Source: an uncultured Bacteroidales bacterium (GTDB lineage: Bacteria; Bacteroidota; Bacteroidia; Bacteroidales; VadinHA17). Taken from it: DNA of 64,000 nucleotides. The notes under the pieces are model-generated. The model made no database searches, was not told where the DNA came from, and worked only from the letters and a program-made list of their open reading frames with translations. Positions 1 to 11,473 of the stretch are shown one piece after another (within the stretch, counting starts at the first letter, position 1; the number at the start of each line of letters is the position of its first letter). The stretch is taken from assembly GCA_963732365.1 (NCBI GenBank), contig CAVSZC010000007.1:8625-72624 (forward strand). The letters are read 5' to 3'. Position numbers and translations under genes: made by a program.

Positions 1-1071
1 GAAAGTTGCTGTTAATTGTGTATCGAGATCAATCCGGTCAACAACAATAATGACAGTGGGGCTATCAAGATCCTGTTGTTTTCGGAGTTTCTGTGCTGCG
101 AACAGCATAAGCAAGGATTTTCCTGAACCCTGAAAATGCCAGATCAGACCCTTTTTTATTTTTCCTTCTCTTACCCGTTCAACTATTGCATTTGCTCCTT
201 CATATTGTTGATAGCGGCAAACTATTTTTATCTTTTTCTTTTTGGAACTCGTGGCATAAACAGTGAAATGCTGGATAATATCGAGCAGAGTTGATGGTCT
301 AAGCAGATGTGTCAGTTGTTTGGCTACATCATTTAACCCCAGGAAATGACTCATTTCATCTTTCTCGTCCTCCAATCGCCAAGGAGCCCAGAACTCAAGA
401 GGTGTCCGAACACCTCCGATGAATATCTCCTTCCCCTCTGATGCAAATGAAAAGACATTAGGTACAAAGAGCTGTGGAACAGCATTCTCATAAATCTCAT
501 GGATATCATAAGCACCATCAAACCAACTAATGGCAGGACGAACCGGTGTTTTTAACTCGCCAATAACCAATGGGATACCGTTAACAAACATTACGATATC
601 GGGTATTTTTGTCTCCCTGGTTCTGATCTTGAACTGATTTGTAAGAACAAAACTGTTATTCTTTATTTCTTCAAAATCAATAAGCTTAATTGGAACATGC
701 TGATTGTTTTTACCAAAAGGCAAAGACATTTCACCTCTTATCCACTTCGAAAACTCCTCATTTGCACGAACTAAACCTACATTACCAACAGTGATAATGA
801 TTGCCCTGAGCTTATGGATTACCTCCTCTGCTCTGTCAGGCTGAGAAGCAATATCGGGATTTATTCTGTAAAGGGATTCTTTTAATTCCTTCTCCAGGAG
901 TACATCCGTAAGTTCACGCTGCAATATTTCAGGTTGAACATATCGCCATCTTACAGAACCATAATCAACAAGCTCTTCTGAAACTAAATTGTTCTGAACA
1001 GCATTCAGATTTACGCCTGTAAGTTGGTGAATGACAAAATTCTCAATACTATTTTGTTCAGTGAATGTCAT
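1..1071 (-). CDS. hsdR: Type I restriction enzyme R subunit (HsdR), N-terminal part; the gene runs off the left edge
   Basis: Absent from the ORF track because it is truncated. My minus-strand translation from the ATG at 1071..1069 gives MTFTEQNSIENFVIHQL... and reaches the edge with GLIWHFQGSGKSLLMLFAAQKLRKQQDL..VVDRIDLDTQL, the SF2 motif I context typical of HsdR. The start overlaps the hsdS stop (TAATG). Confidence 0.85.
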   Translation of the reverse strand, partial: MTFTEQNSIENFVIHQLTGVNLNAVQNNLVSEELVDYGSVRWRYVQPEILQRELTDVLLEKELKESLYRINPDIASQPDRAEEVIHKLRAIIITVGNVGLVRANEEFSKWIRGEMSLPFGKNNQHVPIKLIDFEEIKNNSFVLTNQFKIRTRETKIPDIVMFVNGIPLVIGELKTPVRPAISWFDGAYDIHEIYENAVPQLFVPNVFSFASEGKEIFIGGVRTPLEFWAPWRLEDEKDEMSHFLGLNDVAKQLTHLLRPSTLLDIIQHFTVYATSSKKKKIKIVCRYQQYEGANAIVERVREGKIKKGLIWHFQGSGKSLLMLFAAQKLRKQQDLDSPTVIIVVDRIDLDTQLTATF

Positions 1072-2249
1072 TATCCTAATATTTCGTTCAACAATTTTTG
1101 TTTCAGATTCCTTAAAGTTGTTTTTTGTTGTTTTAGTTGGTTAATTGTTGTGTTCAAAAGTTGCAAAACTTCCAACATTTTTTCCTGGGTCTTTAAATCA
1201 GGAATGGAAACTTCCAAATCAGCCAAATCTTTCCATTTAGTTCTTGGTGATAAAGAACCTGCTGAAGTACTGACTGCATGTTGAATAAATGCATCTGTTG
1301 AAATATAGTAAGGCAATAAACCTTGTAACATCTTATTGGCTTTTGCTCTGATTACCAAAATATCACCTGAACAAATGCCATCAAAATCGGCAACGGCAAT
1401 TTTCTTTAAATAAGCTCTGCGTTTGCCAAATAAGACATCACCTTTTGCAAAGCGTTTTGAAAAAGTAGTTCCACTAGCAATTTCTCCCCAACCTTGCAAA
1501 AGAAAATTATCGGCTTCTATAAATTCTAAACCAACAAAGCGCTCAACTTCTTTTTCGTGTTCGGGAAATTTTTTATCACACTCTGCTATTTCTCTAAAAG
1601 TTGTTGGTGTACAATTATTGCTATTCAATAAATTTCCAAACAAAGGTTTTTTGCTCAACAAACCATTGATTAAAGATTTTTGCACAACTTTGAAATTCTT
1701 CTCTTGGTCCTCCACCTGTTCAGTAGCTGTTTCTATTGTTTGAAAAAGTACAGCAATCTGCTTTTGCTCTTCAAATGAGGGAAGGGGTATTTCATAATTA
1801 AATACAAAATCTTTCATTAGACGCTTCCTACCAGTCGTTCCAATCATCATTAACTTTCCTCTTTCAATAAATGTATTACTTGAAATTATTGAATAGAGTA
1901 AGTAGGGATCAATTTTTACCCCCCTTAAAACAAAAAACTCAGTGGAGCCAAATCCAATGTCGTTTGACATATTATTAACTAGTCCACTTTTACCATTTTC
2001 AAAACATGGTGTCATTTTTGCAAGGAGAACATCATTGTTCTTAAAATAGCTTAATCCACTCTTTCTTAGTTCTTTAATTGTTTTTATTTGTGAATATTTG
2101 AACTTTGAACTTCTCACATTTAAATCTGCCATTTCTGCAAATGAAACCAGAGTCTCGTCTGACACACTTGCAATCTCTTTTTTGGAAGGATCTATTTCAC
2201 AAACCGTTCCCAAATTGACTTTTTCCCATTTATCTTTCCCCAACTTCAT
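1071..2249 (-). CDS. hsdS: Type I restriction-modification specificity subunit (HsdS)
   Basis: 392 aa with two half-repeats, each ending in the conserved HsdS helix motif (IPLPSFEEQKQIAVLF and SIPDLKTQEKMLEVLQ). It sits between hsdM and hsdR with overlapping stop/start codons. Confidence 0.85.
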   Translation of the reverse strand: MKLGKDKWEKVNLGTVCEIDPSKKEIASVSDETLVSFAEMADLNVRSSKFKYSQIKTIKELRKSGLSYFKNNDVLLAKMTPCFENGKSGLVNNMSNDIGFGSTEFFVLRGVKIDPYLLYSIISSNTFIERGKLMMIGTTGRKRLMKDFVFNYEIPLPSFEEQKQIAVLFQTIETATEQVEDQEKNFKVVQKSLINGLLSKKPLFGNLLNSNNCTPTTFREIAECDKKFPEHEKEVERFVGLEFIEADNFLLQGWGEIASGTTFSKRFAKGDVLFGKRRAYLKKIAVADFDGICSGDILVIRAKANKMLQGLLPYYISTDAFIQHAVSTSAGSLSPRTKWKDLADLEVSIPDLKTQEKMLEVLQLLNTTINQLKQQKTTLRNLKQKLLNEILG

Positions 2250-3721
2250 ATTTCTATCCCTATATCTTTAAGTTGGGTAAATAATTCGTCCATTGTTGCA
2301 TTAATTTGTTTCTGATTGGATTTAATATTAGCAATCAAGTCTTCTGTTTTATCATCATTGTTATTAGCAGTCTGTTTCACATACAATTGAAAACTTAGGT
2401 TACCGTTATTCTCCAACACTTCATTATTACTCATAACCTTGGCAAATCCCTCAGAATCTTTATACTTCCAATAGGCTTCACTAATCTTTTTAATATGTTT
2501 TGGTTCAAGCCATGCATTGGTGCGTTCAATCCTCAATTCTTCTTTCGCATCAATAAAAATAATTTTACCTTTTCGGTCATCTGGTTTTTTCATCCTGCAA
2601 ACAAGTAAGCAACTTTCCATGCTACTGTTGTAAAAGAGATTCTTACCCAGACCAATCACCGCATCAACATAATCCTTTTCTATCATCTTCCTGCGGATGT
2701 CACTTTCAGCATCTCTGAATAATACTCCATGAGGCCACAATACTACACACCGTCCGGTCTTTTCGTTGAGACTTTTCATAATATGTTGTTGGAATGCATA
2801 ATCGGCGCACCCTTGAGGTGGCGTTCCCCAAATGTTTCTTCCGAATGGATCACTCATCCACTTTTCACGGTTCCATTTCTTTACACTGTACGGTGGGTTG
2901 GCCATTATGACATCGAACTGCCTCAGTTCATCATCCTCAAGTATCTGTGGAGAATCCAAAGTGTCTCCTTGGACAATTAGAAATTCATCAACATTATGCA
3001 TGAACATGTTTATGCGGGCAATGGCTGAGGTAATAAGGTTAAGCTCCTGTCCATATAGTTTTAATGTCCGATATTCCTTCCCCTGTTCTTTTACATGCAG
3101 AGCACTGCTCAGTAGAATACCACCACTTCCACATGTCGGATCGTAAATACTTTCACCTGGTTGAGGATCGGTAATTTGCGTCATCAACTTAACCACAGTA
3201 CGGTTTGTATAAAACTCAGCGGCAGTATGACCACTGTCATCTGCAAATTTTTTAATCAGGTATTCATAACCTTCACCCATCAGGTCGTGAGGTACTTCAC
3301 CAACCGATAACCTCATCTGGCTAAAGTGCTCAATCAGGTCGAGCATCTTTTCATCGCTCATTCTCCGTTTATTTGTCCACTGGGCGTCTCCAAACACATC
3401 ATGCAGCATTTCAAAATTGGCCTTTTCAATTTCTGTCAATGCATTTTGGAGGGCAGCTCCCACATCAATGGTTTTCTTGCGTATATCGTCCCAGTGACAT
3501 CCTTTTGGAATCTGAAACCGATGGTTTTCTGCAAATTCAGCATAACTTAAATCGTTTCCACTCTCTTCGAGAGCTAATTTGTATTCTTCGTCCCACAAGT
3601 CACTAACACGCTTAAAGAAAAGAAGAGGGAATATGTATTGTTTAAAATCAGCGGCATCGATCATCCCTCTGAGTATATTGGCAGCTCCCCATAGATAATC
3701 TTCAAGTTCTTTTTGAGTCAT
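2246..3721 (-). CDS. hsdM: Type I R-M N6-adenine DNA methyltransferase subunit (HsdM)
   Basis: 491 aa. AdoMet motif DPTCGSGG, catalytic NPPY (IMANPPYSVKKW), and an HsdM N-terminal domain (LWGAANILRG). ATGA overlap with hsdS. Confidence 0.9.
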   Translation of the reverse strand: MTQKELEDYLWGAANILRGMIDAADFKQYIFPLLFFKRVSDLWDEEYKLALEESGNDLSYAEFAENHRFQIPKGCHWDDIRKKTIDVGAALQNALTEIEKANFEMLHDVFGDAQWTNKRRMSDEKMLDLIEHFSQMRLSVGEVPHDLMGEGYEYLIKKFADDSGHTAAEFYTNRTVVKLMTQITDPQPGESIYDPTCGSGGILLSSALHVKEQGKEYRTLKLYGQELNLITSAIARINMFMHNVDEFLIVQGDTLDSPQILEDDELRQFDVIMANPPYSVKKWNREKWMSDPFGRNIWGTPPQGCADYAFQQHIMKSLNEKTGRCVVLWPHGVLFRDAESDIRRKMIEKDYVDAVIGLGKNLFYNSSMESCLLVCRMKKPDDRKGKIIFIDAKEELRIERTNAWLEPKHIKKISEAYWKYKDSEGFAKVMSNNEVLENNGNLSFQLYVKQTANNNDDKTEDLIANIKSNQKQINATMDELFTQLKDIGIEI

Positions 3722-3790
3722 AATATGATAAAATCAGTAGAAACTATATTCGATTCCGAAAAATCCTGCGTAAGTTACATAAATCCCGCC

Positions 3791-3828
3791 GAGAAAAGAA
3801 AGAGATAATAGGCAGCTCGCTAATAACC
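3791..3828 (+). repeat. Left copy of an imperfect direct repeat bracketing the 5.3 kb orphan-gene plus nuclease-helicase module
   Basis: GAGAAAAGAAAGAGATAATAGGCAGCTCGCTAATAACC. It shares the exact 11-mer CGCTAATAACC (3818-3828) and a purine-rich GAGAAAGA..AGG lead-in with 9151-9177. Confidence 0.35.
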
Positions 3829-3992
3829 CTTGGGAGCAGTAAAAATTGGCGGAAATATCTTTTTGTCACTTTGCATAGTCCAACTTTTAAGCCTTTTTCC
3901 TGAAATTTCAAGACCCAACATAGGACGGATCATTGTGTTTTACTTTTTTAGGAATAGCCATAGGGCACCAGAGGAATTACGGCAGTCGTAAT

Positions 3993-4607
3993 TTAAAAGA
4001 GATTTTTATTGGTTCCCGAATAAGTAAGGAATAACCGTTCAGAGTTAAATCGGGCTATGGGATTAGTTCTAGCCAGCAACTCATACCCATACAGTAATTT
4101 TTGGAACAAGATATCAATCGGCTCGTTCAAGTGTTTTGAGATGATCGATGCAAATCTCTCATTTGATTGATTTATCATATCCCAATCTATATCTTCAAAA
4201 CAGTATGAGCATGCTTCTCTGACCTCGCTGATGAACATCCCGGTACTCAGACCTGATAGACTATGTTTTTGAACGAATTTACCTGCGTAGCACCATATAA
4301 AAATGCAATTTATTTTGCTCTTTAGCGGTAAAACCATCGAATCATCAATAATGTATAATCCAGCATCAGGGAACTGCCCCGGGTTCAATAATCCAAAAGG
4401 AGATCCATGCCCGAGCATTAGTATCCTATCATGGGCTTTAATGAGTTCCAGTAATTCCGATTTTGTGTTACCACCTCTAATGACAGTTTTGTTTTTAAGG
4501 TTTGCATAGATTGGAGCAAGGAAGGTGGTGGTAGGATCTTCAGGATGAACAATAAGAGTTTTCATGATTGGGCTAATGTAAAGCCAAAAATTGGTTATGC
4601 CCAACAT
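3993..4607 (-). CDS. Orphan hypothetical protein; possible minimal caspase-fold (clan CD-like) His/Cys protein
   Basis: ORF of 204 aa. The more plausible start is MKTLIVHPEDP at 4565 (190 aa). Hydrophobic strand plus GHG (RILMLGHGSPFG), followed about 39 aa later by hydrophobic strand plus Cys (NCIFIWCYAGKF). I recognise no known family. Confidence 0.55.
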   Translation of the reverse strand: MLGITNFWLYISPIMKTLIVHPEDPTTTFLAPIYANLKNKTVIRGGNTKSELLELIKAHDRILMLGHGSPFGLLNPGQFPDAGLYIIDDSMVLPLKSKINCIFIWCYAGKFVQKHSLSGLSTGMFISEVREACSYCFEDIDWDMINQSNERFASIISKHLNEPIDILFQKLLYGYELLARTNPIARFNSERLFLTYSGTNKNLF

Positions 4608-4705
4608 TATCAGAGCCAGATTTTACGGGCCATATAGACATTTTGACAATATTGATGATTTCGGAGATTAAAACCGTCTATGGGTTATTAAAATTGAACC
4701 AGACC

Positions 4706-4719
4706 TGTCAAATTTGACA
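4706..4719. promoter_or_regulatory. Perfect 14-bp palindrome TGTCAAATTTGACA in the divergent intergenic region
   Basis: Read directly from the sequence. It lies between the divergently oriented orphan gene (minus) and the nuclease gene (plus), so it is a candidate operator. Confidence 0.2.
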
Positions 4720-5088
4720 CTGGAGACACGATCACAATAAAGCTTGGGGTTTTATCATCCAGAGGAATTCATCGATCTGGGCTTGCTAAATTGACGATAA
4801 TTGAAGAATCCGTCATTCTTTGACCACTTCAAAAGAAGGTTTGAAAACAATTTGCATTCATAAAGAAACAATAAGGATATAAATTTTGTGGAAAGTTTGA
4901 ATTTGCAGGAACAAAAAAAACCTATGACACCATAGCAAATTTACCTTCATCTGAGACAAATCATTTATTCCATCAAAGTCTGGATTCTTACAATTAGGTT
5001 TGAGGAATATATTCTTGATTAAGAATTTCTTTTACCTTTAGTAATTGGTTCTTGACTGCCAGATAATCAGAATCAAGAAGAAGTATCT

Positions 5089-5976
5089 GTGACTGACAGT
5101 CCTCTGCTTTATAAGGTTGTGATATTTAATAAACACTTTTATCGTATTTTTAAAAATATTTTCAAAAAAGTGAAGATTGAATTCCAGACTATTGAATCAC
5201 CGTCTAGAGGGTACACTGGACTTAACCTTGAATTGGAAGAATGCCAGTCCCATCTGATTCATGAAGTCAAAAATAATTTATTGGATAGGGAGGAGTGGAA
5301 TAATACTCTTGAGAGTTTACGGACCTTAAGGGCTGAAACGGGGTTTGATGTTAGTGCGGAGTTATTAGCAGACATACAATCATTTTCAGAAGAAAAAATT
5401 GAAACCCAACAATTCAGAATAGGAGAAGCCTTTGCTGAAGTAATCCTTGAACAAGAGTTTTCCTGTCGATTCCACTGGAATGAAAATCGAGACGCAAGAA
5501 ATCCTAAAGGGAATAAAACAGGAGCTGATTTGGTTGGATTTATTGAGGTCAATGGACAAGTTTTGTTTTTATTTGGAGAAGTTAAAACTTCTTCTGAAAC
5601 AGCGAATAGGCCACCGCAAGTAATGACTACAAGGTATAAAAGCATTGAAAGTCAACTTAGAAGTTTACACGATGACATCAGAAAACGAAGAATATTAATC
5701 AGTTATCTTCAAAATAAAGCTAGACATTATCCTTCAGGTCATGCATTTTTTGAAGATTTTGAAGCAGGAAAAAGAGCTTATTATTCCGGAGAATGTAGGT
5801 TTCATCTTTTTGGTGTACTTATAAGAGATGTTTCACCAGATGAAAGGGATGTTTCAGTTAGCTACAACAGATTACGGACACAAATCTTAGAACCGAAAGG
5901 CTTAAAATTATTGGCTCTGTACCTTCCCATTCAGAAAAAAGATTGGTTGACTATCATTAATGAGGAACAAAAATGA
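5089..5976 (+). CDS. PD-(D/E)xK-like nuclease candidate (HamA-like position in a Hachiman-like pair)
   Basis: 295 aa from a GTG start; the start is uncertain, with an alternative GTG at 5170. Signature GADLVGFIEVNGQVLFLFGEVKTS = D-x16-E-x-K. The stop overlaps the helicase start (ATGA at 5973-5976). Confidence 0.55.
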   Translation: MTDSPLLYKVVIFNKHFYRIFKNIFKKVKIEFQTIESPSRGYTGLNLELEECQSHLIHEVKNNLLDREEWNNTLESLRTLRAETGFDVSAELLADIQSFSEEKIETQQFRIGEAFAEVILEQEFSCRFHWNENRDARNPKGNKTGADLVGFIEVNGQVLFLFGEVKTSSETANRPPQVMTTRYKSIESQLRSLHDDIRKRRILISYLQNKARHYPSGHAFFEDFEAGKRAYYSGECRFHLFGVLIRDVSPDERDVSVSYNRLRTQILEPKGLKLLALYLPIQKKDWLTIINEEQK

Positions 5977-8900
5977 GCATTCAATCCAAATATCTCTACT
6001 TAGAACAAGTATATCCAGAGATACTTCAGGGTATTGGTACACTCATTCAGAAAGGTAAACTGTCAAGGCGTTTCGAAAACATTAATCTTACTAATGAAGA
6101 CTTTCAGCAATTAGAAAAGGCAAAAGAGCTCTGTGAACTGAAAATTGTTGAGCAATGGGAAAATAGAAGTAATAATGATATCAAAGGTTTATGTTCGACC
6201 TATTTTGATATCGCCTCATTGTTAATCAATGACTTGGATAATGAATATTTTGTTTTTGAGCAAATTAAATTAATAGCCTTCGGTTATTTAGGTGAGCATT
6301 GGCATTTTGTGAAACAATATCTTCGGAGTTATGATTTTGAATCCATTTCAGTTCCCTTAGCTTGGAATAAACGCTTACTGTATCTATCTTTCAAAGCACT
6401 TGCGGGAATGGTTGTCAAAGAAAGCTGGCACGAAATATCAAGATCTATTGAGTTAATAAATCAGTTACGAGACGAACAAAGAAATTTCGAGTTAAGTTTT
6501 CTGAACCAAGTCAATGAAGAAGGCAGACCATACGAGGCAGCTGAGCTGGTATCATTATACCATTTTGCTAAGACAATTGATGTTTTGGGTCAATATTTTA
6601 ATGAAGGTCGCCCTTTAGAACCAGAAACCCAAATTCACTATCATTTAAACCTTTCTAAGGAATTTGCTGAAAAATCTGGCAATATAAGTCTGATACTATT
6701 ATATCAGTTTTACGAGGCATTAGCTGTTAAAATGATTCGAAATACCATTTGGTATTCGACCAGAGGAGTAAATCATTGGGTAACGGAATTCAATCGTTTT
6801 ATTTCAGGGAAAGATAATAAAGGAGTATTTGAATTACTCTATCCACAAAGAGAATCTATTCGTGACCAGCAATTATTAAATCCAGCGCACAGGGCAATAG
6901 TGGTAAACTTACCGACATCAAGTGGAAAAACAATGATTGCGGAATACCGAATTTTACAAGCGTTGAATGATTTTAAACAAAGAGGAGGATGGGTCGCCTA
7001 TATAGTGCCAACAAAATCATTGGTTAACCAAATATTTATACAATTTAATAGGGATTTAGGAGGCATTGGATTACGCATTGAAAAGGCTAGTGGAGCAATT
7101 GAATTAGATGGTTTTGAGAAATATCTTGTCGAAGAACAGGGGAATAATACTTCGTTTGATGTATTAGTGACCACCTATGAAAAAATGAATCTACTCCTAA
7201 GACAGGGGCTTGGTACAACCAGAGATCGTCCATTAGTGCTTACCATAGTTGATGAGGCTCACAACATAGAACTAGAAGGGCGTGGACTATGCCTTGAACT
7301 TTTATTATCGACAATCAAGAACAACTGTGAGGAGGTCAATTTCATGCTGATGACCCCAGATATTTCTAATTCGAATGAAATCGTAGAATGGTTGGCTGGA
7401 GACAGGGGACATGTTATAAATTTACAATTAGATTGGTGGCAACCCAATGAAAGAGTAGTTGGTGCTATACAGGTGTCAGGGAGAGGTAATAATTATGATT
7501 TTGCTTTAAAAACACTACATACCGATAAAGGAGCATATATCATCGGAGATTCAATCCCCTTGAAAAATTTTGTAAATGCCCCAATTGCAAAATCTAGATT
7601 TTATGGGGCTAATGGATCTAAGAAACAAGTTGCTGCCCTATTATCAGCTGAATGCTTAGACATTAATCATCCTCAAATTGTACTGGCAAGACACCCAAAT
7701 GAAACTTACGATATTGCTGAGGTGCTTTATAATAAATCAAGGGCAGATTTTGCAGTGGACGAAGATGTCGAATTACTCAAGAAACTTATTGTTTCAGAGC
7801 TTGGAATAGATTTCCCTTTAGTTAGATACCTTGACAGGAGAATTGCAGTTCATAGTTCTGCATTGCCGGATGAAATTAGATTCTTGATTGAGGACTTAAT
7901 GATTTCTGGAAATAAGCTTCAGGCGTTGGTGGCAACAACAACTATTGCACAAGGCATTAACTTTCCAGTATCCTCAGTGATTATAGGTTCACACTATTAT
8001 CCAGGTATCCCCTCTGTTGAAATGCCAGTAAGAGATTTTTGGAACCTTGCGGGTAGAGTGGGCCGAGCAGGTCAACAAGAAATGGGATGGGTGGGTATTG
8101 CTCTGAAAAATGACGCCGATTTAAGCACTGTAGCTGAGTATGTTGCAAGGGCTTCCAGTGAATTAAATTCACAGTTGGTCAGTGCAATTATAAATGCTAT
8201 ACGATATGCGGATAAAGATTTAAATTTTTGGCTTTATATTGATGAAAGGTGGTCGGCTATTTTGCAATATATCTCTCACTTGAGAAAGCAAAATGAGCAG
8301 CAATCCGCCTTTATTGTGCAGCTGGAGCAAACGCTTCAGAGTACTTTTGGATTCCAGCAACTCTCTGACCAACAAAAAGTATTCTTTCGGGGGAAAATAA
8401 GAGATTATGCAAATACTTTAACTTTAGTCGAAGCAAGACAAGCTGACGCTACAGGCTTTTCTACTGTTTCAGTTAGACAAATGATTGGGAAACTTGCTAA
8501 TGCAGGTCTTTCTCCTAATGATTGGAATAAGGATCAATTGTTCTCTGAACAGAATCAAAGTATGCAAAAACTTATTGGTATTATGTTGGATACTTATGAG
8601 ATACGAAACTCGATGCAGGAGTTATGTGAGGGAGGCCAACCATTAGATAGGTCTAGTATTTCCAGAATGATAATTGACTGGGTAAATGGTCGTGATATCT
8701 CATTTATAGCTAATCAGTACTTTCCAAATGAAAACCGTCAAATATCTATTCAGAAAGCAACAAAAGCCTTATATAAAGTCATAGCACAGTCTGCCACATG
8801 GGGTTTTGCGGCCTTACAGCAATTACCAATGAGTGGTGTAGATTGGGAAAGTTTATCTGAGATCGACAAAAAACGAATGGCCAATTTACCTGCTTATTTG

Positions 8901-9152
8901 CATTACGGAGTAAATACGGATAGTGGTGTTTTAATGCGTAAAAATAATGTTCCTAGAAGTATAGCAAATCAATTAGGCGAACTGTACAATACATCGATAA
9001 AAGGGGAGATTTTTAGTCAACCTACATCAGCTGTTTCGGAATGGATTGGTCTTCAGTCAATTGAAATTTGGAACAAGGTTCTTCCAGCCGATTCAAACCT
9101 AAATGGTAATGAGTACAAGAGAATATGGATGAAATTAAACGGGATCGTATGA
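5973..9152 (+). CDS. Large SF2 DEAH-box helicase (Ski2/COG1204-like; HamB-like position)
   Basis: 1059 aa. Motif I NLPTSSGKT, Ia IVPTKSLVNQ, II IVDEAHNI, V/VI LVATTTIAQGINFP, VI AGRVGRAGQ. About 300 aa of N-terminal and 350 aa of C-terminal sequence carry no motifs I recognise. Confidence 0.8.
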   Translation: MSIQSKYLYLEQVYPEILQGIGTLIQKGKLSRRFENINLTNEDFQQLEKAKELCELKIVEQWENRSNNDIKGLCSTYFDIASLLINDLDNEYFVFEQIKLIAFGYLGEHWHFVKQYLRSYDFESISVPLAWNKRLLYLSFKALAGMVVKESWHEISRSIELINQLRDEQRNFELSFLNQVNEEGRPYEAAELVSLYHFAKTIDVLGQYFNEGRPLEPETQIHYHLNLSKEFAEKSGNISLILLYQFYEALAVKMIRNTIWYSTRGVNHWVTEFNRFISGKDNKGVFELLYPQRESIRDQQLLNPAHRAIVVNLPTSSGKTMIAEYRILQALNDFKQRGGWVAYIVPTKSLVNQIFIQFNRDLGGIGLRIEKASGAIELDGFEKYLVEEQGNNTSFDVLVTTYEKMNLLLRQGLGTTRDRPLVLTIVDEAHNIELEGRGLCLELLLSTIKNNCEEVNFMLMTPDISNSNEIVEWLAGDRGHVINLQLDWWQPNERVVGAIQVSGRGNNYDFALKTLHTDKGAYIIGDSIPLKNFVNAPIAKSRFYGANGSKKQVAALLSAECLDINHPQIVLARHPNETYDIAEVLYNKSRADFAVDEDVELLKKLIVSELGIDFPLVRYLDRRIAVHSSALPDEIRFLIEDLMISGNKLQALVATTTIAQGINFPVSSVIIGSHYYPGIPSVEMPVRDFWNLAGRVGRAGQQEMGWVGIALKNDADLSTVAEYVARASSELNSQLVSAIINAIRYADKDLNFWLYIDERWSAILQYISHLRKQNEQQSAFIVQLEQTLQSTFGFQQLSDQQKVFFRGKIRDYANTLTLVEARQADATGFSTVSVRQMIGKLANAGLSPNDWNKDQLFSEQNQSMQKLIGIMLDTYEIRNSMQELCEGGQPLDRSSISRMIIDWVNGRDISFIANQYFPNENRQISIQKATKALYKVIAQSATWGFAALQQLPMSGVDWESLSEIDKKRMANLPAYLHYGVNTDSGVLMRKNNVPRSIANQLGELYNTSIKGEIFSQPTSAVSEWIGLQSIEIWNKVLPADSNLNGNEYKRIWMKLNGIV

Positions 9153-9177
9153 GAAAGAGGTAGGGGCGCTAATAACC
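9151..9177 (+). repeat. Right copy of the imperfect direct repeat
   Basis: GAGAAAGAGGTAGGGGCGCTAATAACC, overlapping the last two bases of the helicase stop codon (TGA 9150-9152) and running downstream. Exact 11-mer CGCTAATAACC at 9167-9177. Confidence 0.35.
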
Positions 9178-9244
9178 AATGATTCTCAGGAGACCAATCC
9201 ATCAAAAAACAACCATTACCTAGCACAAACCTAGCACAAAATGA

Positions 9245-9277
9245 GAAACACCTACACATCATCCGTGTAAGTGTTTC
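9245..9277. terminator. Hairpin between the convergent helicase gene and tRNA-Met (probably a bidirectional terminator)
   Basis: GAAACACCTACAC / GTGTAAGTGTTTC: 12 of 13 positions pair, with a 7-nt loop. T-rich sequence follows on both strands (ATTTT on plus, TCATTTTGT on minus). Confidence 0.5.
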
Positions 9278-9286
9278 ATTTTCAAG

Positions 9287-9360
9287 TAGCGAGACCGAGA
9301 ATTGAACTCGGGACCTCATGATTATGAATCATGCGCTCTAACCAACTGAGCTATCTCGCC
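9287..9360 (-). tRNA. tRNA with CAT anticodon (Met; an Ile2/lysidine or initiator identity is not excluded)
   Basis: The reverse complement reads GGCGAGA TA GCTC AGTTGGTTA GAGC G CATGA TTCATAA TCATG AGGTC CCGAG TTCAATT CTCGG TCTCGCT A, a full cloverleaf. The 1:72 pair is G-U. CCA is not encoded. Confidence 0.85.
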
Positions 9361-9441
9361 TTGTCCTCCGTATCCGCCAACCGGCGGAGAAGGAGGGCCC
9401 ATTGCCAACCCATAACTATGGCAAAGGCTTTATTAACGCGG

Positions 9442-9453
9442 GTGCAAATATAA
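9442..9453 (-). promoter_or_regulatory. Bacteroidetes-type -7 box (TATATTTG) upstream of tRNA-Met
   Basis: The plus strand reads GTGCAAATATAA, the same 12-mer as in front of tRNA-Val (39081-39092). Its reverse complement TTATATTTGCAC fits the TAnnTTTG consensus. This implies a leader of about 80 nt that contains a GC hairpin (9363-9397). Confidence 0.35.
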
Positions 9454-9532
9454 ATATTTTTTCATTTTAGCCCTCATCCTTTTTGTTTTCATCTATTATT
9501 TTTATATTGCATCACAAGAGATTCTCCCACAA

Positions 9533-9919
9533 ATGAGATGCCGGTTCGAAATCGAATATACCCTGAATACCACCACCCGCGTGCTATTCGACAGACTGAG
9601 CACCCCGGAAGGACTCTCGGAATGGTTCGCTGACAACGTCAACGTCGACGGAGATACCTTTACATTCTTCTGGGACAAGACAGCAGCACATGCCCGCCTC
9701 GCTTACTTCAGGGAAAATAAATCAGTACGATTTGAGTGGCTCGATCTTGCCGACAGCGAATCAAACTTCTTCGAATTCCGTATCCAGACACACGAACTGA
9801 CCGGCGATACCGCACTCATCATCACCGACCACGCCGACGAGGACGAGGTCGAAGATGCAAAAGAGCTCTGGAACACACAGATATCCAACCTGCGTAAAGT
9901 CCTCGGCCTGCCTGAATAA
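9533..9919 (+). CDS. SRPBCC/START-like (AHSA1-like) domain protein
   Basis: 128 aa. The pattern LFDRLSTPEGLSEWFADNV...F.W... is typical of small START-like proteins of Bacteroidota. Confidence 0.6.
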   Translation: MRCRFEIEYTLNTTTRVLFDRLSTPEGLSEWFADNVNVDGDTFTFFWDKTAAHARLAYFRENKSVRFEWLDLADSESNFFEFRIQTHELTGDTALIITDHADEDEVEDAKELWNTQISNLRKVLGLPE

Positions 9920-9964
9920 GCAGCCGTTGCATCTTTACCAAAAATAGCGTACGTTTGCGACACA

Positions 9965-11473
9965 TTGCAGGCAATGAAGAAAATCGACATTTTCATGGTC
10001 AAGTCATTCATAGGACCGTTGTTCCTGACATTCTTCATTGTGCTGATCATATTCATCCTGCAGTTCCTCTGGATGTATGTCGACGAACTCGCCGGCAAAG
10101 GCCTTGAGATAAAAGTACTCGCAGAACTGCTCTTCCAGTTCTCCCTCACCTTCGTCCCCCTCTCCCTCCCCCTGGCAATACTCCTCGCCTCACTGATGAC
10201 CTTCGGTAACCTCGGTGAGTTCCTCGAACTCACAGCACTGAAATCGTCAGGAGTGCCGCTGCAGCGTGTTATGCTGCCTCTGTTCGTACTCGTATCTTTT
10301 CTTGCTGTCGCATCTTTCCTCTTCTCCGATTATATCCTTCCCCTCTCAAACCGCAAGGCAAGAACACTGCTCTATGACATCAGACGCAAACGGCCTGAAC
10401 TGAATATCCAGGCAGGTACCTTCTACAACGGGATAGACGGCTTCAGCATCAAGATAACCGATAAGGATGCCGAGACAAACAGACTCGACAGGATATATAT
10501 CTATGACCACCGGAAAGGGATGGGCAACAATGCAGTGATATACGCCGACTCGGGATATATGGCTGTCACTCAGGATGAGAGCGGAATGATTCTTACCCTT
10601 TACAACGGGTACGCATACAACGAGATGGAGGAGAGGAACGTTGACCAGGAAAAGAGAAAATACCCTTTCAGGCGGGATAAATTCAGCCAGCAGACAATGG
10701 TCATCGAACTGACCGGATTCGACCTCGACAGATCAGGGATGGACCTCTTCAGATCAAACTACGCCATGCTGAACTCAAGAGAACTGGGTTATTTTGTCGA
10801 CTCCCTGTCTGCCAGGTATGCGGTCCGCTCCGATGCCTATTACAATGACTTCAACAGCACCAAACTCATGTCACGCGACAGATATTATTCGAGCGGATAT
10901 GATAACTACGGTGACACCTCTTCTGCCAAAAAACTTGAAAACTTTAACTGCCGCGCTGCCTTTGACACTCTTGCAATGCCGGAAAAGACTGCTACCATCA
11001 GCAGGGCACTTAACCTCGCCCGTGACGGCATTGCATTCATGACCGAAAAGAGCGAGTCACTTCATCAGGAGGCAAAAAACCTCACAAGGTACCGCGTCGA
11101 GCTTTATAAGAAATATACCCTCCCTATTGCCTGCCTTGTCTTCTTCTTCATAGGTGCACCTCTCGGAGCAATAATAAGAAAAGGGGGCCTTGGTACACCG
11201 GCAGTAATATCGGTGCTCTTTTTCGTGGTCTACTATGTCATTTCACTGACCGGCGAGAAATTTGCCAAAGAACTCATCTGGAGTGTCCCGCTTGGTACCC
11301 TCGCATCTACAATTGTTCTTTTTCCGATAGGCATCTTCCTTACATACAAGGCAACAACAGACGCCGCCATCATGAACGCGGAGACATATCTTCTCTTCAT
11401 CAGGAAAATCGGAACTTTCTTCACCGGTATCAAACCTGAAACCAGCAATGAAGATACTCGTCCTGGCACCTAA
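9965..11473 (+). CDS. LptF/LptG family LPS export permease (YjgP/YjgQ)
   Basis: 502 aa. N-terminus IDIFMVKSFIGPLFLTFFIVLIIFILQFLW, followed by a periplasmic insert and C-terminal TM helices. The likely start is the ATG at 9974. Confidence 0.8.
   Translation: MQAMKKIDIFMVKSFIGPLFLTFFIVLIIFILQFLWMYVDELAGKGLEIKVLAELLFQFSLTFVPLSLPLAILLASLMTFGNLGEFLELTALKSSGVPLQRVMLPLFVLVSFLAVASFLFSDYILPLSNRKARTLLYDIRRKRPELNIQAGTFYNGIDGFSIKITDKDAETNRLDRIYIYDHRKGMGNNAVIYADSGYMAVTQDESGMILTLYNGYAYNEMEERNVDQEKRKYPFRRDKFSQQTMVIELTGFDLDRSGMDLFRSNYAMLNSRELGYFVDSLSARYAVRSDAYYNDFNSTKLMSRDRYYSSGYDNYGDTSSAKKLENFNCRAAFDTLAMPEKTATISRALNLARDGIAFMTEKSESLHQEAKNLTRYRVELYKKYTLPIACLVFFFIGAPLGAIIRKGGLGTPAVISVLFFVVYYVISLTGEKFAKELIWSVPLGTLASTIVLFPIGIFLTYKATTDAAIMNAETYLLFIRKIGTFFTGIKPETSNEDTRPGT

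What the first reader, a model, noticed from the sequence alone, without database searches (positions are those of the whole stretch)
5089..9152. Translationally coupled PD-(D/E)xK-like nuclease plus 1059-aa DEAH helicase: a Hachiman-like or new two-gene defence module
Seen directly: ORF1 (295 aa) has one clear catalytic-looking block, GADLVGF-x12-LFLFGEVKTS (D...E-x-K). Its stop overlaps the ATG of ORF2 (ATGA at 5973-5976). ORF2 carries a complete SF2 motif set (PTSSGKT, DEAH, TTTIAQGINFP, AGRVGRAGQ), flanked by about 300 aa of N-terminal and about 350 aa of C-terminal sequence with no motifs I recognise. Established knowledge: Hachiman (HamA/HamB) pairs a small DUF1837 nuclease-fold protein with a Ski2/COG1204-type helicase, and such pairs cluster with R-M systems. 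Inference: this is either a divergent Hachiman or an undescribed nuclease-helicase system. The large helicase extensions and the co-bracketed orphan gene (3993-4607) do not fit a minimal HamAB.
Basis: partly seen in the sequence, partly recalled or inferred. Interest (0 to 1): 0.7.

Follow-up and report, generated by a model that had tools for sequence, protein, structure and literature searches.

The report
Divergent Hachiman-type nuclease-helicase defence pair
This is a two-gene nuclease-plus-helicase operon on a horizontally acquired island; it belongs to a family already catalogued as the untested anti-phage candidate PDC-M23 and is a deeply diverged relative of the known Hachiman (HamAB) defence system, so it is a credible but not new kind of system.

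Summary
In detail: two overlapping ORFs (ATGA at 5973-5976) with every reported motif. Homologues show that gene A probably starts at GTG 5170 (268 aa), not 5089.

Both proteins match PADLOC candidate PDC-M23 over their full length (A 1.9e-85; B 1196 bits).

The helicase is homologous to canonical HamB (PADLOC HamB1 2.4e-51; hhalign to B. cereus HamB 99.95%, residues ~238-1010), so its C-terminal "extension" is normal for HamB.

The small protein has no significant sequence match to HamA/DUF1837. Its confident AF2 model (pLDDT 91.8) has one significant PDB match, E. coli HamA (8vx9_A; E 8.7e-5, TM 0.51). Its invariant GE..E / D / ExK residues follow the HamA layout.

In 77 of 80 related loci, spanning several bacterial phyla and archaea, B directly follows A; the other three are cut by contig ends. 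Most junctions overlap.

The orphan gene never co-occurs (0/80).

The pair lies in a 33-40% GC island (host ~50%) beside tRNA-Met and a type I R-M operon, with no synteny elsewhere.

Verdict: a new member of a known, catalogued but untested kind. It most likely works like Hachiman: the helicase senses damaged DNA and the nuclease then degrades DNA.

The parts
5170..5976 (+). Gene A: HamA-fold PD-(D/E)xK-type nuclease (PADLOC PDC-M23A), 268 aa from GTG 5170. The longest ORF starts at GTG 5089 (295 aa).
   Evidence: PADLOC PDLC04527 1.9e-85, profile 6-262/263. Homologues start at the residue aligned to V28. AF2 model pLDDT 91.8. Its only significant PDB fold match is HamA 8vx9_A, E 8.7e-5.
5422..5439 (+). 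GEAFAE helix motif (G85, E86, E90; 268-aa numbering), the predicted first acidic element of the active site.
   Evidence: G85, E86 and E90 are invariant in 80/80 family members. hhalign places it against GEIFLSE of B. cereus HamA. S. thermophilus HamA G89/D90/E93 occupy the equivalent position (PMC13064477).
5521..5541 (+). GADLVGF strand with the catalytic-type D120.
   Evidence: A119 and D120 are invariant in 80/80. The strand aligns to GDDVL of canonical HamA.
5575..5586 (+).
   Evidence: G136, E137, V138 and K139 are invariant in 80/80. The motif aligns to GESK of canonical HamA. E. coli HamA E138A/K140A abolishes defence (PMC12278908).
5973..5976 (+). ATGA stop/start overlap between gene A and gene B (translational coupling).
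   Evidence: Seen in the sequence. The same 4-nt overlap occurs in 40 of 76 related loci, and other overlaps in 23 more.
5973..9152 (+). Gene B: HamB-like Ski2-type SF2 helicase (PADLOC PDC-M23B), 1059 aa.
   Evidence: PADLOC PDLC04531 1195.6 bits, profile 5-1059/1060; HamB1 models down to 2.4e-51. hhalign of the family profile against B. cereus HamB gives Prob 99.95, E 2.9e-38, residues 247-1010 vs 217-994. PDB sequence hits are SLH1, ASCC3, Brr2, Hel308 and HamB.
6912..6932 (+). Helicase motif I (Walker A), PTSSGKT, residues 314-320.
   Evidence: P314, T315, S316, G318, K319 and T320 are invariant in the 39-sequence B alignment.
7251..7262 (+). Helicase motif II, DEAH, residues 427-430.
   Evidence: D427, E428, A429 and H430 are invariant.
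7935..7967 (+). Helicase motif V region, TTTIAQGINFP, residues 655-665.
   Evidence: T655, T656, Q660, G661, N663 and P665 are invariant.
8049..8075 (+). Helicase motif VI, AGRVGRAGQ, residues 693-701.
   Evidence: G694, R695, G697, R698 and Q701 are invariant.
9286..9360 (-). tRNA-Met (CAT) marking the right-hand edge of the low-GC island. Its 3' end faces the island.
   Evidence: ARAGORN and Rfam tRNA at 74 bits. GC steps from 0.33-0.40 to ~0.50 at this point.
1..3721 (-). Context only, not part of the module: type I R-M operon in the same island. hsdM is 2246-3721, hsdS 1071-2249, and the hsdR N-terminus runs from ~1079 off the left end of the window.
   Evidence: Pfam N6_Mtase/HsdM_N and Methylase_S. 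The translation of the HsdR N-terminus contains GELKTP and GSGKS.

Best explanation
The locus is a complete, intact copy of the two-gene family that PADLOC lists as candidate defence system PDC-M23. That family is a deeply diverged branch of the Hachiman (HamAB) type of nuclease-helicase anti-phage system. It was acquired horizontally on a tRNA-Met-linked island.

Proposed mechanism, inferred by analogy with E. coli and S. thermophilus Hachiman:
1. Gene A and gene B are co-translated and form a heterocomplex.
2. The Ski2-like DNA helicase B holds the PD-(D/E)xK-type nuclease A in check while the complex surveys intact DNA.
3. Phage infection generates free DNA ends or damaged DNA, which enter the helicase.
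4. ATP binding and hydrolysis then license the nuclease (E86/E90, D120, E137, K139).
5. The nuclease degrades DNA indiscriminately and aborts the infection.

Shown here: family membership, the HamB homology of B, the HamA fold and motif layout of A, the strict A-B linkage, and the island context.

Inferred only: complex formation, the trigger, the substrate, and that the locus protects against phage at all.
For: - PADLOC gives full-length matches to PDC-M23A (1.9e-85) and PDC-M23B (1195.6 bits).
- B is HamB-homologous: PADLOC HamB1/HamB2 models down to 2.4e-51, covering residues 251-994; BLASTP to B. cereus HamB 3e-32; hhalign Prob 99.95, E 2.9e-38 over 695 columns; E. coli HamB 8vx9_B 1.8e-40.
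- A has the HamA fold. The AF2 model has pLDDT 91.8 and pTM 0.88. Foldseek against 350,542 PDB chains returns one hit with E<=1e-3, HamA 8vx9_A (E 8.7e-5, prob 1.00, TM 0.51/0.52, full length); the next hit has E 0.095.
- PF08878 (HamA) is the only Pfam family hit recurrently by A-family members: 29 of 80, against 4 or fewer for any other family. Those hits are collinear over the catalytic core.
- G85, E86, E90, D120, E137 and K139 are invariant in 80/80 members. They follow the order, and roughly the spacing, of the essential residues of S. thermophilus HamA (PMC13064477) and of E. coli HamA E138/K140 (PMC12278908).
- All helicase motifs are invariant in the B family.
- B follows A on the same strand in 77 of 80 loci from several bacterial phyla and archaea; the other 3 are cut by contig ends. 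The genes overlap in 63 of 76 junctions.
- The size and layout equal the canonical B. cereus HamA (271 aa) and HamB (1120 aa), which also overlap.
- The context is an island: GC 0.33-0.40 against ~0.50 for the host, tRNA-Met at the edge, and an adjacent type I R-M operon.
- Housekeeping flanks are never syntenic with the pair (0/80).
- Flanks elsewhere include R-M genes, SNF2/DrmD-like helicases, nSTAND, a PLD-helicase and transposases. One related-looking pair sits beside a CBASS operon on a conjugative plasmid.
Against: - No sequence method links gene A to HamA at a significant level. Pfam finds no PF08878 hit for the window protein at E<=0.1. PADLOC reports no HamA model.
- Family profiles against PDB sequences find nothing.
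- hhalign against B. cereus HamA gives E 0.14, and against a 54-sequence HamA family profile E 0.4.
- The structural match is moderate: TM 0.51, rmsd 6.2 A, 14% identity. It rests on a predicted model.
- Residues 1-175 of B match no HamB model. The homology of the domain that binds HamA in E. coli (the NAH bundle) is therefore untested.
- PDC-M23 has no experimental validation that I could find: 'PDC-M23' occurs in no searchable paper, and most PDCs are described as unvalidated (PMC12988326).
- The flanks of related loci also contain many ordinary housekeeping genes. I did not quantify defence-island enrichment against a background.
Confidence: 0.75

Rival explanations
1. It is an independent nuclease-helicase defence system that shares only the Ski2-like helicase with Hachiman. 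In this view gene A is a PD-(D/E)xK nuclease of separate origin recruited to a HamB-like helicase, and it may use a different trigger or substrate.
For: No sequence or profile method links A to HamA at a significant level. The A family is discrete: 404 clusters at 50% identity, with few weak-tail hits. It has its own invariant residues, D39, R107-D108, P148-P149, R219-D220, D227 and Y251; I did not check whether canonical HamA shares them. PADLOC keeps the family separate from Hachiman. The first ~175 residues of B match no HamB model.
Against: HamA is the only significant fold match in the whole PDB, over the full length and not just the nuclease core. PF08878 is the only recurrent weak Pfam hit, and the hits are collinear. 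The gene order, protein sizes and overlap are the same as in canonical hamAB. B is homologous to HamB well beyond the generic helicase core. Co-evolution of HamA and HamB trees is reported for Hachiman (PMC13064477), so a diverged A paired with a diverged B is expected.
Confidence: 0.15
2. It is a housekeeping or repair helicase-nuclease pair (Hel308/Lhr-like) with no role in defence.
For: B's best NCBIfam and PDB sequence matches include Hel308 and other Ski2-like helicases. PHROG 6819, 'Holliday junction branch migration helicase', scores 9.9e-40. Some related loci are flanked by ordinary metabolic genes.
Against: The NCBIfam Hel308 scores are ~100 bits against cut-offs of ~900-1200. The locus lies in a low-GC island next to a tRNA gene and an R-M operon. 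The housekeeping flanks are found near the pair in none of 80 related loci. The distribution is patchy across several bacterial phyla and archaea, and only 92 tblastn-confirmed stretches were found in a scan of representative genomes of 185,579 species. The family is already flagged as a defence candidate.
Confidence: 0.05
3. It is an accessory or cooperating component of the neighbouring type I R-M system, together with the orphan gene, and not a stand-alone module.
For: The pair sits ~1.4 kb from the hsdM-hsdS-hsdR operon in the same island, with the orphan gene between them. Type I R-M genes also lie near the pair in 6 of 80 other loci.
Against: In 74 of 80 loci no HsdM-like gene lies within ~8 kb. 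The R-M genes that do occur are only ~28-38% identical, which indicates independent associations. The orphan co-occurs in 0 of 80 loci. The pair is transcribed divergently from the R-M genes.
Confidence: 0.05

Closest known systems
PADLOC candidate system PDC-M23 (PDC-M23A + PDC-M23B; PADLOC-DB v2.0.0)
   Same: Both proteins match the family HMMs end to end (A: PDLC04527, 284 bits; B: PDLC04531, 1196 bits). They are adjacent, on the same strand, and in the order A then B.
   Different: No difference detected; this is a typical member. The family itself is a computational candidate. I found no published description or test of it.
Hachiman type I, HamA (DUF1837/PF08878) + HamB: B. cereus, E. coli ECOR31 (PDB 8vx9), S. 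thermophilus
   Same: Two overlapping genes, with the small nuclease first and the ~1050-1170-aa Ski2-like helicase second. B is homologous to HamB over ~700 residues, including the C-terminal region. A has the HamA fold as its sole significant PDB match. A also has the same order of acidic helix, D and ExK motifs (PMC12278908, PMC13064477).
   Different: A is not recognised by PF08878 or by any PADLOC HamA model, and profile-profile comparison is not significant. The A family has its own invariant residues: D39, RD107-108, PP148-149, RD219-220, D227 and Y251. The first ~175 residues of B match no HamB model. The family is far rarer than Hachiman: 92 tblastn-confirmed stretches in a scan of representative genomes of 185,579 species (a lower bound), against more than 5% of genomes reported for Hachiman (PMC12278908).
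AbpAB of E. coli K-12 (YfjL/YfjK), a Hachiman variant
   Same: A nuclease-type protein plus a Ski2-like helicase in an overlapping operon on a mobile element. It is reported to be activated by DNA damage (PMC10732053, PMC12278908).
   Different: AbpA is 538 aa, with an N-terminal Cap4-like nuclease and a catalytically inactive HamA-like C-terminal domain (PMC12278908). Here A is a single 268-aa domain with an intact D...ExK. AbpA (8zue_A) did not appear among the 50 fold matches listed.
Hachiman type II (HamABC, with DUF3223 HamC)
   Different: The orphan 3993-4607 has no Pfam or PADLOC hit and therefore no HamC/DUF3223 match. It is on the opposite strand and is absent from all 80 related loci.

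Membership tests
PADLOC PDC-M23 | Protein A matches a PDC-M23A HMM | tested here: met
   PDLC04527: E 1.9e-85, 284.3 bits, profile 6-262 of 263.
PADLOC PDC-M23 | Protein B matches a PDC-M23B HMM | tested here: met
   PDLC04531: E 0, 1195.6 bits, profile 5-1059 of 1060.
PADLOC PDC-M23 | The two genes are adjacent and co-oriented | tested here: met
   ATGA overlap at 5973-5976. The same arrangement occurs in 77 of 80 related loci.
Hachiman (HamAB) | HamA carries the DUF1837 / PF08878 domain, recognised at the sequence level | tested here: not met
   The window protein has no PF08878 hit at E<=0.1 and no PADLOC HamA hit. 29 of 80 family members hit PF08878; the ten inspected individually score at most 22 bits, below the 25-bit cut-off. 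hhalign against a HamA family profile gives E 0.4.
Hachiman (HamAB) | The effector has the HamA three-dimensional fold | tested here: met
   The AF2 model (pLDDT 91.8) has one PDB match with E<=1e-3: 8vx9_A HamA, E 8.7e-5, prob 1.00, TM 0.51/0.52 over 278 columns. The test uses a predicted structure, not an experimental one.
Hachiman (HamAB) | A conserved D-E(x)K catalytic motif in the effector | tested here: met
   D120, E137 and K139, plus E86 and E90, are invariant in 80/80. They are in register with GDDV and GESK of canonical HamA in the hhalign alignments, which are themselves not significant.
Hachiman (HamAB) | HamB: a Ski2-like SF2 helicase with HamB-specific flanking regions | tested here: met
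   PADLOC HamB1 2.4e-51 over residues 251-994. hhalign to B. cereus HamB gives Prob 99.95, E 2.9e-38, residues 247-1010 vs 217-994 of 1120. 8vx9_B scores 1.8e-40.
Hachiman (HamAB) | The N-terminal helical bundle (NAH) of HamB binds HamA | not tested
   Residues 1-175 of B match no HamB model. The region has conserved positions within the family: W131, K149, W152, Q169 and E173 are invariant.
Hachiman (HamAB) | hamA lies upstream of hamB in one operon, commonly overlapping | tested here: met
   The canonical B. cereus hamA/hamB genes overlap by 11 nt.
Hachiman (HamAB) | Confers phage resistance that depends on both the nuclease and the helicase active sites | not testable with these tools
   This needs cloning and phage challenge.
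Hachiman type II (HamABC) | An associated HamC (DUF3223) gene | tested here: not met
   The orphan 3993-4607 has no Pfam or PADLOC hit and is absent from 80 of 80 related loci.

The most novel reading that the evidence does not exclude
PDC-M23 may be a mechanistically distinct offshoot of Hachiman and not merely a diverged copy. Two features point that way. The effector carries family-specific invariant residues (D39, RD107-108, PP148-149, RD219-220, D227, Y251). The first ~175-240 residues of the helicase are conserved within the family but match no HamB model. Together these could form a different nuclease-helicase interface, or sense a different infection cue, from the DNA-end and DNA-damage sensing described for E. 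coli HamAB.
Probability: 0.15. Interest if true: 0.55.

Novelty: new member of a known kind. Interest (0 to 1): 0.3.

Why it matters
The value is mainly in annotation. The locus is a clean, intact example of PADLOC candidate PDC-M23, in a textbook setting: a low-GC island beside a tRNA gene and a type I R-M operon.

The analysis ties that unvalidated candidate family to Hachiman by structure, by partner protein and by motif layout. That gives the family a concrete, testable mechanism and specific mutants: E137A/K139A in A, and K319A or D427A in B.

It also shows that standard DUF1837/HamA profiles miss a whole branch of Hachiman-type effectors. That branch comprises 404 clusters at 50% identity and reaches into archaea. 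Counts of Hachiman prevalence that rely on those profiles would miss it.

It does not reveal a new kind of immune system.

Tried and rejected
- First AF2 run with a shallow alignment (58 sequences, all >=63% identical): pLDDT 53.7, unusable. I solved this by collecting distant homologues through a profile built from loci.
- Sequence routes from gene A to HamA all failed to reach significance: Pfam on the window protein, profiles A1 and A4 against PDB sequences, hhalign against a single B. cereus HamA, and hhalign against a HamA family profile.
- I tried to recover the E. coli HamA sequence through AbpA. phmmer found only AbpA itself, 8zue.
- An RxxR motif (R51..R54) in the helical hairpin of A looked like the E. 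coli HamA-HamB interface motif (R/K)xx(R/K). It is not conserved in the family (24/80 and 10/80), so I dropped it.
- I looked for a second copy of the tRNA-Met 3' end (an att repeat) within the window and found none. The island runs off the left end of the window.
- Orphan gene 3993-4607 as HamC or a third component: rejected.
- The sigma-70 promoter and terminator scan gave no more sites than shuffled sequence, so it was uninformative. Rfam finds only the two tRNAs. There are no notable repeats in the intergenic regions.
- Organism identification failed. Exact look-ups returned no named record.
- Literature search for 'PDC-M23': no paper.

Full report
**Observation**

The window has an ORF at 5089..5976 (+, GTG, 295 aa) and an ORF at 5973..9152 (+, ATG, 1059 aa). 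They share ATGA at 5973-5976.

One correction is needed. ORF1 has 1080 database homologues at E<=1e-3. Nearly all are ~267 aa and start at the residue aligned to V28 of the 295-aa ORF. The PADLOC profile also begins matching at residue 28. The likely start is therefore GTG 5170, giving 268 aa.

**What the two proteins are**

Against PADLOC-DB, ORF1 matches PDC-M23A (1.9e-85, profile 6-262 of 263). ORF2 matches PDC-M23B (1195.6 bits, profile 5-1059 of 1060). The pair therefore belongs to a family that is already catalogued as a 'phage defence candidate'.

The second tier of ORF2 hits consists almost entirely of HamB models. The best is 2.4e-51 and covers residues 251-994. Pfam sees only the generic DEAD, ResIII and Helicase_C domains. 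NCBIfam gives Hel308-type hits far below their cut-offs.

A 39-sequence profile of the B family, built from related loci, aligns to canonical Bacillus cereus HamB with probability 99.95%. The E-value is 2.9e-38 over 695 columns, residues 247-1010 against 217-994 of 1120. The same profile hits E. coli HamB (8vx9_B) at 1.8e-40, among Ski2-like helicases such as SLH1, ASCC3, Brr2 and Hel308.

Canonical HamB is just as long: 1120 aa in B. cereus, paired with a 271-aa HamA, with the two genes overlapping.

**Is ORF1 a HamA?**

By sequence, this cannot be shown.
- The window protein has no PF08878 or PADLOC HamA hit.
- Family profiles against PDB sequences find nothing.
- hhalign against B. cereus HamA gives E 0.14.
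- hhalign against a 54-sequence canonical HamA profile gives E 0.4.

Four lines of evidence nevertheless point to HamA.

1. Fold. With a diverse 80-sequence alignment, AlphaFold2 gives a confident model: pLDDT 91.8, pTM 0.88. Foldseek against 350,542 PDB chains returns exactly one match with E<=1e-3. It is HamA of the E. coli Hachiman complex, 8vx9_A, with E 8.7e-5, probability 1.00 and TM 0.51/0.52 over the full length. The next hit has E 0.095.
2. Recurrent weak Pfam hits. PF08878 is the only Pfam family hit repeatedly by family members: 29 of 80, against 4 or fewer for any other family. The ten members inspected individually score at most 22 bits, below the 25-bit cut-off. Their hits are collinear over the catalytic core.
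3. Motif layout. G85, E86, E90, D120, E137 and K139 are invariant in 80 of 80 members. They follow the same order, and roughly the same spacing, as the essential residues G89/D90/E93, D127 and E147/K149 of S. thermophilus HamA (PMC13064477) and E138/K140 of E. coli HamA (PMC12278908). The non-significant hhalign alignments place GEAFAE on GEIFLSE, GADLV on GDDVL, and GEVK on GESK.
4. Partner protein. The partner is a HamB homologue in the canonical gene order.

I conclude that the family is a deep branch of the Hachiman type whose effector has diverged beyond the reach of sequence profiles. The A family is discrete: 404 clusters at 50% identity, of which 313 are below 1e-10.

**Conservation of the module**

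A scan of one genome per species found 92 tblastn-confirmed stretches, of which 80 loci were fetched. Most are from Bacteroidota. Others come from Ignavibacteria, Firmicutes, Proteobacteria, Acidobacteriota and archaea (Nitrosopumilus, Woesearchaeota, Alkanophaga).

The helicase follows gene A on the same strand in 77 of 80 loci. The other three are cut by contig ends. The two genes overlap by 4 nt in 40 of 76 junctions and overlap in some way in 63 of 76. The sizes hold down to ~30% identity: A is 249-273 aa, and intact B ORFs are about 1043-1115 aa.

The orphan gene 3993-4607 has no counterpart in any of the 80 loci. It has no hit in Pfam, NCBIfam, PADLOC, PHROGs or plasmids. It is not part of the module, and it is not a HamC.

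**Context**

GC content is 0.32-0.42 (mostly 0.33-0.40) from position 1 to ~9200, and 0.48-0.55 from ~9500 onward. A tRNA-Met gene lies at 9286-9360 on the minus strand, 134 nt after the ORF2 stop, with its 3' end facing the low-GC block.

The rest of the low-GC block holds hsdM, hsdS and the N-terminus of hsdR on the minus strand. This is a type I R-M operon that runs off the left end of the window. To the right are LptF/G, glycosyltransferases, ribBA and fmt.

None of these housekeeping genes is found near the pair in any related locus (0/80). Unrelated type I R-M genes at ~28-38% identity occur near the pair in 6 loci.

A sample of 109 flanking ORFs from 16 loci contains SNF2/DrmD-like helicases, methyltransferases, EcoRI, a PLD-helicase, nSTAND, and IS66 and Mutator transposases. 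These are mixed with unrelated metabolic genes.

A pair with a related helicase lies beside a CBASS operon on a conjugative Rhizobium plasmid; its small protein is not significantly similar to the A family. The module is rare on viral contigs: 2 matches in 2.9 million, one of them carrying the full pair.

This is the pattern of a horizontally mobile accessory module, not of a housekeeping helicase.

**Mechanism (inferred)**

By analogy with E. coli and S. thermophilus Hachiman (PMC12278908, PMC13064477, PMC11914072), I propose the following:
- A and B form a heterocomplex.
- The Ski2-like DNA helicase restrains the nuclease while the complex surveys intact DNA.
- DNA ends or damage produced during infection enter the helicase.
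- ATP binding and hydrolysis then activate the nuclease, which degrades DNA and aborts the infection.

The evidence here supports the parts list. Both active sites are intact, and their residues are invariant across family members as little as ~30% identical. The genes are strictly linked and translationally coupled.

The evidence does not test complex formation, the trigger or the substrate. The first ~175 residues of B match no HamB model, although several positions there are invariant within the family. The homology of the HamA-binding bundle therefore remains open.

**Novelty and score**

The locus is a new member of a known kind. The family is already in PADLOC as PDC-M23. I found no paper that names it, and PDCs are described as largely unvalidated (PMC12988326).

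The link to Hachiman is now supported by fold, partner protein and motif layout, which gives the candidate a testable mechanism. It is not a new type of system. One UniRef record already labels a homologue 'Anti-bacteriophage protein A/HamA C-term'.

Interest is 0.3. The most novel reading still open is a mechanistically distinct offshoot, with its own interface or trigger. I give that a probability of ~0.15.

Noticed in passing
window 3993-4607 (-): A 204-aa orphan ORF lies between the type I R-M operon and the pair. It has no hit in Pfam, NCBIfam, PADLOC, PHROGs or plasmids, and it is absent from all 80 related loci. It recurs only in two 5.7-kb Logan contigs (ERR12035938, ERR15459710) that have the identical arrangement.
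   Followed up: yes
window 1-9360: A low-GC block (mostly 0.33-0.40, against ~0.50 for the host) is bounded on the right by tRNA-Met (9286-9360, minus strand, 3' end facing the island). It carries hsdR, hsdS, hsdM, the orphan and the A-B pair. The left end, and any integrase, lie outside the window. No att-like repeat of the tRNA 3' end was found in the window.
   Followed up: partly
window 9218-9277: A tandem 11-mer, ACCTAGCACAA x2, lies at 9218-9239. It is followed by a 14-bp-stem hairpin (9245-9277, minus strand, terminator-like), just downstream of the 3' end of tRNA-Met.
   Followed up: no
L012:8801-11197 and L023:8801-10054: In two related loci (a Sporocytophaga MAG and a Cytophagales MAG) the helicase ORF stops early, at 798 and 417 aa, although tblastn similarity continues to the end. 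These may be frameshifts, pseudogenes or assembly errors.
   Followed up: no
proteins P0349 (684 aa), P0347 (452 aa), P0339 and P0323 (~335 aa): These A-family domains carry N-terminal extensions of ~70-440 residues. They could be domain fusions or mis-called starts.
   Followed up: no
L001:1179-4412 and L007:661-3894: Two different Bacteroidota have a 1078-aa ORF upstream of the pair on the same strand. Four ORFs in the 16-locus flank sample hit SNF2/DrmD-like models, but I did not match those hits to individual ORFs. This may be a recurrent neighbour.
   Followed up: no
L083 (Rhizobium etli plasmid pRetMIM1e, NC_021909.1) 2743-6715: A 284-aa hypothetical protein and a 1041-aa helicase overlap by 8 nt, directly downstream of a CBASS operon (cGAMP synthase, ThiF/E1, JAB). 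The helicase is 27% identical over 88% of ORF2. The small protein is not significantly similar to the A family and has QVK where A has EVK.
   Followed up: partly
L084 (IMGVR_UViG_3300036543_000108) 6001-10022: A 52-kb IMG/VR viral contig carries a full A+B pair (31% and 34% identity). It is one of only two matches in 2.9 million viral contigs.
   Followed up: partly
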